Shown in pieces: positions 30,703 to 31,647 of a stretch of DNA of 64,000 nucleotides. A program made the translations under genes and the position numbers. The notes beneath the pieces were generated by a model. The model was not told the origin of the DNA and did no database searches. It saw only the letters and a list, made by a program, of their open reading frames with translations. Positions within the stretch are counted from its first letter, which is position 1. Each line of letters begins with the position of its first letter. The stretch lies in NCBI RefSeq assembly GCF_054482525.1, contig NZ_CM137006.1, one strand, 5' to 3'.

Positions 30703-30927
30703 TTAGTTAATCAGTTTATCAATCTCAGCAAGAGGTAAATTTGCCATCTCTGCAACGTCTTCCCGAGACATTCCTTTACTCAGAAGACGCAGGGCGAATT
30801 CTTGCCTTTCCTCCTGTCTTCCCTGCTGAATCCCCTTCTCAATTCCTTTCTCCATTCCTTTCTCCATTCCCTTCTCAATTCCCTTCTCAATTCCCTTCTC
30901 TTCAAACCACTGCGCCAGCGTCATCAT
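30703..30927 (-). CDS. Candidate intragenic RpnS-like small protein (internal in-frame start within rpnC), 74 aa
   Basis: An in-frame Met-Met (residues 241-242, ...GGESMMTLAQWFEEKG...) is preceded by an SD-like gggaggggag with about 7-nt spacing. Separate translation of the tail has been described for Rpn proteins. Confidence 0.4.
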   Translation of the reverse strand: MMTLAQWFEEKGIEKGIEKGMEKGMEKGIEKGIQQGRQEERQEFALRLLSKGMSREDVAEMANLPLAEIDKLIN

Positions 30928-31647
30928 AGACTCCCCTCCCGTTTCCCTGTCTCTCAGCACACCATAAAACAAATCCGCTTGTTCAGTATGACCGCGTTGC
31001 AGCATATAGTTTTGCATGGCAACTAACTGACTTCCGCTAGTGTACCCTTCGTCAATCAGCGTGACCAGTTGCTCCAGCAATAACATTAAGTCGCGCTGGC
31101 GAATATGTTTTTGCAGTAGTTCGAGAATCGCAATCCGCCGATGTTGCATGATTTCGTCATCCGGTGTGATGGTGATATCCACCAGCGGGAAAGGGTTGTT
31201 GTAAACGCGTCGCGCCAGCTCCGGCGAGTAAAACATATCAAACCAGCACATTGAGAGCGGATAAGGTGTGGCCTCGCCCTGATAAAACAGAATCGGCACC
31301 ACCAGCGGCAGCTTATCGTGATCCGCCTCCAGATGCCGGTGCATGGCGGCAATGGCATAGCGCATCATGCGAAAGGTCATTTTCTTATCCGGCTTGCTTT
31401 GATGTTCAATCACCACATGCAAATAACCGGGATTACCCTGCATTTGTACGGAATAGAGTACGTCCGTGCTGTGCCCTTTCAGGCTTTCCTCAATAAAACT
31501 CCCCGACTCAAGATGCAGCGTGTCGAGGTCACACAGTTCGCGTAGCTCCGCTGGCAAATGAATATCCAGAAAGTCGCGAGCCGTTTCCGCATGCATTAAA
31601 AATTGTTTAAACACCGCATCATGCGGTGTGGTACTCGGTGCATCCAT
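30703..31647 (-). CDS. rpnC: Recombination-promoting nuclease family protein RpnC (YhgA-like, PD-(D/E)XK N-terminal domain)
   Basis: 314 aa, MDAPSTTPHDAVFKQFLMHAETARDFL..., located between panC and panD as yadD is in K-12. The C-terminal tail carries EKG(I/M) 4-aa repeats. Confidence 0.85.
   Translation of the reverse strand: MDAPSTTPHDAVFKQFLMHAETARDFLDIHLPAELRELCDLDTLHLESGSFIEESLKGHSTDVLYSVQMQGNPGYLHVVIEHQSKPDKKMTFRMMRYAIAAMHRHLEADHDKLPLVVPILFYQGEATPYPLSMCWFDMFYSPELARRVYNNPFPLVDITITPDDEIMQHRRIAILELLQKHIRQRDLMLLLEQLVTLIDEGYTSGSQLVAMQNYMLQRGHTEQADLFYGVLRDRETGGESMMTLAQWFEEKGIEKGIEKGMEKGMEKGIEKGIQQGRQEERQEFALRLLSKGMSREDVAEMANLPLAEIDKLIN
30821..30904 (-). repeat. 12-bp tandem repeat array inside the rpnC tail
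   Basis: About 6 units of cc(c/t)tt(c/t)tc(a/c)a(t)t (for example cccttctcaatt, cctttctccatt), encoding (EKGI/EKGM)x6 then QQG. Confidence 0.8.

What the first reader, a model, noticed from the sequence alone, without database searches (positions are those of the whole stretch)
30703..30945. Internal RBS and Met-Met start inside rpnC for a gene-within-gene small protein
Seen in sequence: within rpnC the in-frame Met241-Met242 (...RETGGESMMTLAQWFEEKG...) is preceded by gggaggggag, giving about 7-nt SD spacing to the ATG. The downstream free-standing tail ORF starts at the homologous position with its own SD. This supports independent translation of a 74-aa product from inside rpnC, consistent with the reported RpnS antitoxins.
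Basis: partly seen in the sequence, partly recalled or inferred. Interest (0 to 1): 0.55.

Follow-up and report, generated by a model that had tools for sequence, protein, structure and literature searches.

The report
Known nested antitoxin start inside rpnC
The ribosome-binding site and double ATG inside the E. coli rpnC nuclease gene are real and stand out from chance, but they are the published start of the small RpnC-S antitoxin (Zhong et al., PNAS 2023), so this confirms known biology.

Summary
The window is E. coli PCN033. rpnC lies at 31647..30703 on the minus strand.

This is the strongest predicted Shine-Dalgarno pairing (-10.8 kcal/mol) among 491 in-frame internal ATGs in the window. 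It is built from rare Gly codons. It is kept in all 22 rpnC alleles sampled, and the surrounding 61 bases are at least 95% identical in 5398 of 5426 E. coli genomes.

The sequence is identical to K-12 rpnC. For K-12, retapamulin and Onc112 ribosome profiling and SPA tagging already showed an internally initiated RpnC-S protein. RpnS proteins are known to block the toxic nuclease encoded by the same gene.

Two corrections:
- The Met homologous to the proven RpnA-S start (M244, first residue of PDB 7TH0) is Met242. The product is therefore 73 or 74 aa.
- The downstream 77-aa ORF (published as rpnC-Ss, present in about 29% of E. coli genomes) starts 9 codons upstream of the Met241-equivalent position. 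It has AGG-CAG where rpnC has ATG-ATG.

Verdict: observation confirmed, interpretation supported, already known, low interest.

The parts
30703..31647 (-). rpnC (yadD) long frame, RpnC-L, 314 aa: the PD-(D/E)XK nuclease toxin with a C-terminal tail
   Evidence: ORF list. RefSeq annotation of PCN033, WP_000339915.1. 97% identical to K-12 RpnC. Lies between panC and panD, as in K-12.
31027..31629 (-). Transposase_31 / YhgA-like nuclease domain (residues 7-207). D10, D62, E81 and Q83 match RpnA D11, D63, E82 and Q84.
   Evidence: Pfam PF04754, E = 9.4e-87. TIGR01784 at 292 bits. Motifs PHDAVFK, STDVLYSV and VIEHQSK are readable. The RpnA mutants are described in PMC5350276.
30931..30940 (-). Internal Shine-Dalgarno GGGAGGGGAG with two overlapping registers: GGAGG 7 nt before ATG241, and GGGGAG 6 nt before ATG242
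   Evidence: Rare Gly codons GGA GGG. Kept in 22 of 22 alleles; only the base at codon 239 position 1 varies (G, A or C) and GGAGG is preserved.
30922..30927 (-). ATG-ATG (Met241-Met242), the start codon(s) of the nested gene. ATG241 is invariant. Codon 242 is GTG in one allele.
   Evidence: Met242 aligns with the single Met of RpnA, B, E and D. RpnA M244 is proven by mutation and is residue 1 of PDB 7TH0.
30703..30927 (-). Nested in-frame gene rpnC-S, giving the RpnC-S antitoxin of 74 aa from Met241 or 73 aa from Met242
   Evidence: Same frame and stop codon as rpnC. Published for K-12.
30819..30900 (-). Tandem 12-nt repeats (6.8 copies) encoding the hypervariable 4-aa repeats KGIE/KGME. They begin 9-10 residues after the internal Met.
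   Evidence: TRF. K-12 has 16 fewer residues here. The core length ranges from 15 to 39 aa among alleles.
30401..30634 (-). Free-standing second tail copy, rpnC-Ss, 77 aa. Annotated as 'hypothetical protein', or as 'RpnC/YadD family protein' in other strains.
   Evidence: Described by Zhong et al. in Fig 2I. The rpnC/rpnC-Ss junction is present in 1553 of 5426 complete E. coli genomes.
30640..30645 (-). SD-like TAAGGG upstream of the rpnC-Ss ATG
   Evidence: -5.3 kcal/mol, in the top 10% of ATGs in the window. Conserved in the sampled Ss copies whose start context was printed.
30503..30567 (-). 12-nt tandem repeats in rpnC-Ss encoding AYQE/VRQE-type 4-aa repeats
   Evidence: TRF. The protein alignment shows a different repeat type and 8 fewer residues than RpnC-S.
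30898..31167 (-). Stretch of rpnC (codons 161-250) with sharply reduced synonymous variation. It is the likely home of the internal promoter, 5' UTR and SD.
   Evidence: Variable third positions: 12 of 90 here against 55 of 160 in codons 1-160, Fisher p = 3e-4, in 12 alleles. The 61-nt start-site segment is at least 95% identical in 5398 of 5426 genomes, against 870 for one control segment in the nuclease domain.
31039..31067 (-). Tentative internal promoter TGGTCA-N17-TACACT (8 of 12 matches). Unverified.
   Evidence: Custom scan. The stricter scan found nothing on this strand. An internal TSS is reported for all rpn genes, but its rpnC coordinate could not be retrieved.

Best explanation
The site is the internal translation initiation site of the published gene-within-gene rpnC-S.

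Ribosomes bind the GGGAGGGGAG element and start at ATG241 and/or ATG242. Most of this translation probably comes from a shorter transcript that begins inside rpnC. The product is a 73-74 aa protein identical to the C-terminal tail of the full-length nuclease RpnC-L.

RpnC-S is a helical oligomerisation module. It binds the same domain in RpnC-L and blocks its toxic PD-(D/E)XK DNA endonuclease activity. This makes it a toxin-antitoxin pair encoded in one reading frame, with a role in phage defence. Pairing specificity is set by the number of 4-aa repeats in the first helix, which is the 12-nt tandem array at 30819-30900.

Shown here: the anatomy, the strength and rarity of the SD, its conservation, and its homology to the proven RpnA-S start. 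Taken from the literature on an identical K-12 sequence: translation of RpnC-S and its counteraction of RpnC-LS. Physical complex formation and nuclease inhibition were shown for RpnA, and their extension to RpnC is inferred. Also inferred: that the same happens in PCN033, and which of the two ATGs is used.
For: - The sequence and coordinates are as described.
- The SD pairing of -10.8 kcal/mol is the strongest of 491 in-frame internal ATGs and in the top 0.2% of all ATGs.
- The SD uses rare GGA-GGG Gly codons, 1 of 124 Gly-Gly pairs. Amino-acid changes at residue 239 (E, K or Q) still keep GGAGG.
- ATG241 and the SD are kept in 22 of 22 alleles. The 61-nt segment is at least 95% identical in 5398 of 5426 genomes, against 870 for a nuclease-domain control.
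- In each of the K-12 paralogues rpnA, B, D and E, the best internal SD plus ATG is at the homologous Met, with the layout GGAG-N6-ATG.
- RpnA M244 is proven by mutation and is the first residue of crystal structure 7TH0.
- The local RNA is not more structured than shuffled sequence, z = +1.2.
- K-12 is identical at the site, and K-12 has the published Ribo-RET/Onc112 signal, the SPA-tagged RpnC-S and repeat-specific neutralisation.
- The 4-aa repeats begin 9-10 residues after the Met, inside the published 8-20 range.
Against: - There are no expression data for PCN033 itself.
- The motif GGAGG-N5-9-ATG alone is not enriched in the window: 5 observed against 7.2 expected.
- No convincing sigma-70 promoter was found upstream inside rpnC. 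rpnC lacks the ATGACA-N17-TTTAAT element that rpnA, B and E carry.
- RpnC-S shows no significant pairwise similarity to RpnA-S (BLASTP E = 1.9).
- The predicted structure (pLDDT 67) did not retrieve 7TH0.
- The low diversity of codons 161-250 could reflect a mosaic or recombination history rather than embedded signals.
Confidence: 0.9

Rival explanations
1. The start is Met242 only. It uses the GGGGAG-N6-ATG register that is homologous to the other four rpn genes, giving a 73-aa product. Met241 is an ordinary residue, equivalent to Leu243 of RpnA.
For: Codon-level homology: rpnA GAG AGT TTA ATG ACT aligns with rpnC GAG TCT ATG ATG ACG. The protein alignment puts the paralogue Met on Met242. 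7TH0 starts at that Met. The 6-nt spacing is the same as in rpnA, B, E and D.
Against: ATG241 is invariant in 22 alleles, while codon 242 is GTG in one (L011), although GTG can also initiate. GGAGG at 7 nt from ATG241 is an equally good or better arrangement. The data available here cannot separate peaks 3 nt apart.
Confidence: 0.4
2. Coincidence. The SD-like run is only the coding sequence for Thr-Gly-Gly-Glu-Ser, the two Met are ordinary residues, and no significant initiation occurs there.
For: The bare motif is not rarer than chance in 64 kb. Two other matches in the window are antisense chance hits.
Against: Rare Gly codons are used. It is the strongest SD among 491 internal in-frame ATGs. 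The same arrangement occurs at the homologous position in all five paralogues. Ribosome profiling and tagging are published for the identical K-12 sequence.
Confidence: 0.02
3. In PCN033 the working antitoxin for RpnC-L is the free-standing RpnC-Ss gene, and the nested start is redundant or vestigial.
For: A separate tail gene with its own SD lies 68 nt downstream. YpaA (RpnE-Ss) is expressed in K-12.
Against: RpnC-Ss has a helix core of 31 aa against 39 aa in RpnC-L/S, and a different repeat type. Published data show that a single 4-aa mismatch abolishes neutralisation. The nested SD and ATG are fully conserved in strains with and without Ss. About 71% of genomes lack Ss.
Confidence: 0.04
4. 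The small protein arises by proteolysis of RpnC-L, and the SD-like element acts only as a translational pause site.
For: None specific. Internal SD-like sequences have been proposed to pause ribosomes (general knowledge).
Against: Initiation-specific inhibitors give peaks at the internal sites. RBS and start-codon mutations abolish RpnA-S and the C. difficile RpnS. RpnS levels exceed RpnL levels, and an internal TSS exists.
Confidence: 0.02

Closest known systems
RpnC-S of E. coli K-12, the intragenic RpnS antitoxin (Zhong et al., PNAS 2023, PMC10400941; internal start first mapped by Meydan et al. 2019)
   Same: Same gene, same locus (panC-rpnC-panD), an identical SD-ATG-ATG sequence, and the same frame and tail architecture with 4-aa repeats.
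   Different: The PCN033 allele has four more 4-aa repeats (core of 39 against 23 aa), a slightly different C-terminus (LIN against VINLI), and an extra downstream rpnC-Ss gene that K-12 lacks.
RpnA-S (PDB 7TH0), the experimentally dissected member of the family
   Same: The internal Met is at the homologous position (M244 corresponds to M242). The layout is GGAG-N6-ATG. The C-terminal tail acts as an oligomerisation and antitoxin module.
   Different: Only about 20% identity and no significant BLASTP match. RpnA-S is 49 aa without the long repeat array. rpnA carries a clear internal promoter-like ATGACA-N17-TTTAAT that rpnC lacks.
YpaA / RpnE-Ss and the published RpnC-Ss (free-standing second copies of the tail)
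   Same: The 77-aa ORF at 30634..30401 is a separate gene directly downstream of rpnC and homologous to its tail. This is what Zhong et al. show in Fig 2I.
   Different: Its start is not the nested start. It has a new ATG 9 codons upstream of the Met241 equivalent and a different SD. RpnC-Ss expression has not been reported, unlike YpaA.
Other in-frame internal-initiation isoforms in E. coli (ArcB-C from Meydan 2019; CheA-S, ClpB-80 and IF2-beta from general knowledge)
   Same: One ORF yields a full-length protein and a C-terminal isoform from an internal SD plus start codon.
   Different: In those cases the short form is not an antitoxin of the long form, and there is no hypervariable repeat that sets pairing specificity.

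Membership tests
Rpn (YhgA-like) recombination-promoting nucleases | PF04754 / TIGR01784 domain | tested here: met
   Pfam PF04754, residues 7-207, E = 9.4e-87. TIGR01784 at 292 bits against a cutoff of 52.
Rpn (YhgA-like) recombination-promoting nucleases | Catalytic signature residues (RpnA D11, D63, E82, Q84) | tested here: met
   RpnC has D10 (PHDAVFK), D62 (STDVLYSV) and E81/Q83 (VIEHQSK), read from the sequences. The role of these residues comes from PMC5350276.
Rpn (YhgA-like) recombination-promoting nucleases | rpnC orthology: panC-rpnC-panD synteny and high identity to K-12 RpnC | tested here: met
   97% protein identity. Same neighbouring genes.
RpnS intragenic antitoxins | In-frame internal start codon with an SD near the boundary between the nuclease region and the tail | tested here: met
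RpnS intragenic antitoxins | Start homologous to the experimentally proven RpnA-S start (M244) | tested here: met
   Met242 aligns with RpnA M244, RpnB M244, RpnE M244 and RpnD M245. 7TH0 begins at M244. Met241 is one codon upstream.
RpnS intragenic antitoxins | The small protein is actually translated (start-site ribosome profiling, tagged protein) | not testable with these tools
   Published for K-12 rpnC. The PCN033 sequence is identical at the site. There are no data for PCN033.
RpnS intragenic antitoxins | Hypervariable 4-aa repeats beginning 8-20 residues after the initiating Met | tested here: met
   The 12-nt repeats at 30819-30900 start at codon 250, which is residue 9-10. The core varies from 15 to 39 aa in steps of 4 among alleles.
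RpnS intragenic antitoxins | Internal transcription start giving a short transcript | tested here: inconclusive
   No promoter at or above 9 of 12 matches on the minus strand. The best candidate scores 8 of 12. The paralogue promoter element is absent from rpnC. A TSS is reported in the literature without coordinates available here.
RpnS intragenic antitoxins | Three-helix bundle with a long first helix (the RpnA-S fold) | tested here: inconclusive
   The AlphaFold2 model has pLDDT 67 and is helical (H4-22, H28-50, H55-61, H66-73). Foldseek against the PDB gave no hit with E below 1, and 7TH0 was not among the 50 best matches listed.
RpnS intragenic antitoxins | Neutralises the cognate RpnL nuclease in a repeat-number-specific way | not testable with these tools
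   Shown for K-12 RpnC-S against RpnC-LS with and without one added KGIE repeat.
RpnSs free-standing tail genes | Separate ORF directly downstream of rpn, homologous to the tail, present in only some strains | tested here: met
   61% identity to the tail. DNA homology, with the K-12-type downstream flank following Ss. Present in 1553 of 5426 genomes.
RpnSs free-standing tail genes | The protein is expressed | not testable with these tools
   Only YpaA (RpnE-Ss) has been tagged. RpnC-Ss has a moderate SD at -5.3 kcal/mol.

The most novel reading that the evidence does not exclude
In PCN033, and in all 16 other sampled genomes that carry both genes, the free-standing RpnC-Ss differs from the resident RpnC-S/L tail in the length of its repeat helix (31 against 39 aa here) and often in repeat type. 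One sampled tail could not be measured, so 16 pairs were compared. Published work shows that a single 4-aa mismatch abolishes neutralisation. RpnC-Ss may therefore not be a back-up antitoxin for its neighbour. It could instead be a stored alternative tail cassette that recombines with rpnC to switch specificity, as the L-Ss fusion allele in strain WCHEC4533 suggests. Or it could be a decoy aimed at non-resident Rpn proteins or at a phage factor.
Probability: 0.2. Interest if true: 0.45.

Novelty: already known. Interest (0 to 1): 0.12.

Why it matters
The Rpn system is the founding example of a toxin whose antitoxin is translated from inside its own reading frame. The first-stage reader recognised its start site from raw sequence alone, and that call was correct.

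For biology, this window adds little beyond a strain-level record. PCN033 carries a long-repeat rpnC allele plus a mismatched free-standing tail gene. Both kinds of variation were already described by Zhong et al. 2023.

Two small open points remain. One is which of the two adjacent ATGs is used. The other is what a repeat-mismatched RpnC-Ss does.

Tried and rejected
- phmmer of RpnC against PDB sequences found nothing. RpnA finds 7TH0, but BLASTP of RpnC-S against RpnA-S is not significant (E = 1.9).
- The AlphaFold2 model of RpnC-S was only moderately confident (pLDDT 67). Foldseek gave no significant PDB hit, only weak HTH-like matches to the last 33 residues or so. The fold-membership test is therefore inconclusive.
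- Pfam did not report DUF4351 for the tail.
- The NCBIfam FliH hits lie on the repeat array and are probably a composition effect. The weak PADLOC 'putative invertase' hit spans the repeats and the following helix. Neither is taken as evidence of function.
- The standard promoter and terminator scan found nothing on the minus strand inside rpnC. A relaxed scan gave only an 8-of-12 candidate.
- The exact K-12 rpnC start-site and TSS coordinates could not be retrieved. Supplements of PMC10400941 and 10.1101/520783 are not held. PMC4288677 is not held. The EDL933 TSS supplements do not list rpnC. The Weaver et al. preprint text does not mention rpn.
- I considered treating the complete lack of S/Ss length matches as evidence of selection and rejected it. 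Random pairing of the observed lengths would give a match only about 1.5% of the time per strain (my own hand estimate from the lengths). Zero matches in 16 is therefore uninformative.
- I did not use the large protein or metagenome searches, because the question was settled by the E. coli genomes and the literature.

Full report
**Origin of the window and anatomy.** The 1.5 kb around the finding is 100% identical to the E. coli PCN033 chromosome (H1). RefSeq annotates panC, a 77-aa 'hypothetical protein', rpnC and panD there. In window coordinates:
- rpnC is the 314-aa ORF at 31647..30703 on the minus strand.
- The 77-aa ORF is at 30634..30401 on the same strand.
- Pfam places the YhgA-like Transposase_31 nuclease domain at residues 7-207 (E = 9.4e-87).
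- The residues matching the catalytic D11, D63, E82 and Q84 of RpnA are present as D10, D62, E81 and Q83 (sequences; mutant data in PMC5350276).

**Checking the observation.** Codons 241 and 242 are ATG-ATG (30927-30922), preceded by gggaaacGGGAGGGGAGtct. A second register, GGGGAG, is 6 nt from ATG242. Initiation at Met241 gives 74 aa.

The bare pattern GGAGG-N5-9-ATG is not rarer than chance. It occurs 5 times in the window against 7.2 +/- 2.8 in shuffles. Of the other four matches, two are the annotated starts of yadI and speE, and two are antisense chance hits.

The site is nevertheless an outlier by better measures:
- Its predicted pairing with the 16S rRNA 3' end is -10.8 kcal/mol, in the top 0.2% of 1991 ATGs in the window.
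- It is the strongest of all 491 in-frame internal ATGs in ORFs of at least 200 aa. The next genuine internal site scores -7.8.
- It is stronger than rpnC's own start, which scores -8.4.
- The SD is written in rare codons. GGA and GGG make up 11% and 12.5% of Gly codons, and GGA-GGG is 1 of 124 Gly-Gly pairs in the window's long ORFs.
- The local RNA is not more structured than shuffled sequence, z = +1.2.

**Conservation.** In 22 rpnC alleles (PCN033, K-12 and 20 other genomes), the string ACGGGAGGGnAGTCT-ATG-rTG is always present. Residue 239 varies (E, K or Q) without destroying GGAGG. ATG241 is invariant. Codon 242 is GTG once.

Among 12 full-length alleles, variable third positions drop from 55 of 160 in codons 1-160 to 12 of 90 in codons 161-250 (Fisher p = 3e-4). 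At population scale, the 61 nt around the site are at least 95% identical in 5398 of 5426 complete E. coli genomes. A size-matched segment of the nuclease domain is recovered in only 870. This agrees with the synonymous-site conservation reported for yadD by Meydan et al.. A mosaic history of the 5' half of the gene could also contribute.

**Paralogues and the exact start.** In K-12 rpnA, rpnB, rpnE and rpnD, the best internal SD plus start is a single Met at the homologous position (M244 or M245, in the context L/I-M-T-I-A). The layout is (A/G)GGAG-N6-ATG. RpnA M244 is the experimentally proven RpnA-S start: the K240R+E241D+M244L mutant abolishes the small protein. It is also the first residue of crystal structure 7TH0.

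Protein and DNA alignments put this Met on RpnC Met242, with Met241 matching RpnA Leu243. The product in PCN033 is therefore 73 or 74 aa. The tools here cannot separate the two.

**What is already published.** K-12 rpnC is identical across the SD and ATG-ATG, with three differences in the roughly 130 nt upstream.
- Meydan et al. [quoted passage not shown]
- Zhong et al. 2023 show the rpnC profiling tracks and detect SPA-tagged RpnC-S. They report an internal TSS in all rpn genes.
- They show that RpnS binds RpnL and inhibits its nuclease activity and toxicity.
- They show that RpnC-S neutralises RpnC-LS only when both carry the same number of 4-aa repeats, and that Rpn systems protect against phage.
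- They also describe a second copy, rpnC-Ss, downstream of rpnC in some strains (Fig 2I).

The finding is therefore a correct rediscovery of a known element.

**The tail repeats.** A 12-nt tandem array of 6.8 copies (30819-30900) encodes KGIE/KGME repeats. It starts 9-10 residues after the internal Met, inside the published 8-20 range. PCN033 has 16 more residues here than K-12. Among sampled alleles the helix core ranges from 15 to 39 aa in steps of four.

**The free-standing ORF.** The 77-aa ORF is 61% identical to the tail. It is followed by the same downstream flank that follows rpnC in K-12, so it looks like an inserted or duplicated tail. The rpnC/rpnC-Ss junction is present in 1553 of 5426 genomes.

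Its ATG is 9 codons upstream of the Met241 equivalent, and the homologous codons are AGG-CAG (TGG-CAG in one allele) in all 17 Ss copies sampled. Its SD (TAAGGG) is moderate at -5.3 kcal/mol. Its repeats are of a different type (AYQE/VRQE), and its helix core is 31 aa against 39 aa.

**Mechanism.** The most likely account has three steps:
1. A short internal transcript, and also the full-length mRNA, present the GGGAGGGGAG element to ribosomes.
2. Initiation at ATG241 and/or ATG242 yields RpnC-S.
3. RpnC-S associates with the identical domain of RpnC-L through the repeat-bearing first helix and keeps the nuclease inactive until an unknown trigger releases it, probably one related to phage.

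Steps 1 and 2 rest on sequence evidence here plus published K-12 data. Step 3 rests on published experiments with K-12 RpnA and RpnC. Transfer to PCN033 is an inference from sequence identity.

**Weak points.**
- I found no convincing promoter inside rpnC.
- rpnA, B and E share ATGACA-N17-TTTAAT about 90 nt upstream of their internal start. The TSS it predicts coincides with the published internal TSS of EDL933 rpnB, 650 bp downstream of the start codon. rpnC lacks this element.
- The fold test was inconclusive.

**Verdict.** The element is already known, and interest is low.

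Noticed in passing
window 30401-30634 versus 30703-30927 (minus strand); loci L003-L009 and L017-L025: In the 16 sampled genomes where both tails could be measured, RpnC-S and RpnC-Ss never have the same helix-core length. S ranges from 15 to 39 aa and Ss from 19 to 31 aa; PCN033 has 39 against 31. Many Ss copies also carry a 2-aa deletion that puts them out of the 4-aa register. Random pairing would rarely give a match (about 1.5% per strain, my own hand estimate), so this is not evidence of selection. Given the published repeat-specificity, it does predict that Ss cannot neutralise its neighbour.
   Followed up: partly
L013:6780-6815, L014 (rpnB) and L015 (rpnE); homologous place in the window is about 31003-31035 (minus strand): K-12 rpnA, rpnB and rpnE share a promoter-like ATGACA-N17-TTTAAT about 90 nt upstream of their internal start. 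rpnD has TTAAAT instead. The predicted TSS matches the published internal TSS of EDL933 rpnB, 650 bp downstream of the start codon. rpnC has GCGGAA...CAAAAC at that place, so its internal promoter must lie elsewhere or be of a different kind.
   Followed up: partly
window 31167-31647 versus 30898-31167 (minus strand): The 5' half of rpnC is far more diverged among E. coli than the 3' third. A 61-nt segment at 31400-31460 is found in 870 genomes, while the start-site segment is found in 5398. This suggests allelic lineages or mosaicism of the nuclease domain. Kingston et al. proposed two independent acquisitions of rpnC.
   Followed up: partly
L012 (WCHEC4533), L026 (isolate AF10), L022 (isolate AF3): Three structural variants of the locus turned up. 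One is an rpnC whose tail ends in the Ss-type ...MATLSLTEVDKLINSN with no separate Ss, an L-Ss fusion of the kind Zhong et al. mention. One has an IS3-family transposase where Ss would be. One has rpnC annotated as an N-terminally truncated pseudogene.
   Followed up: no
window 30703-30816 (minus strand; last ~37 residues of RpnC): The C-terminal two short helices give weak helix-turn-helix-like signals. These are Pfam HTH_7 (E = 0.29), Foldseek matches to resolvase and LuxR-type HTH domains (probability 0.8-0.9 but E above 1), and a PADLOC 'putative invertase' hit (E = 1.8e-6) that mainly covers the repeat array and the following helix. None is significant on its own.
   Followed up: no
window 30325-30353: The perfect 9-bp inverted repeat AACTGGCGC...GCGCCAGTT lies between the convergent panC and rpnC-Ss genes and is conserved in K-12 downstream of rpnC. 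It is probably a shared transcription terminator, although the scan did not call it because it lacks a T run.
   Followed up: no
window 27308-28549 (plus strand): The fimbrial adhesin gene yadC is annotated as a pseudogene missing its N-terminus in PCN033.
   Followed up: no
window 30855-30867 (minus strand; Met261 and Met265): The KGME repeat variants create further in-frame ATGs directly after GAAGGGA or GGAGAAAGGA. These are SD-like (-5.3 and -6.4 kcal/mol), but the purine run directly abuts the ATG, leaving little or no spacer. They are probably not used and arise as a by-product of the repeat sequence.
   Followed up: no
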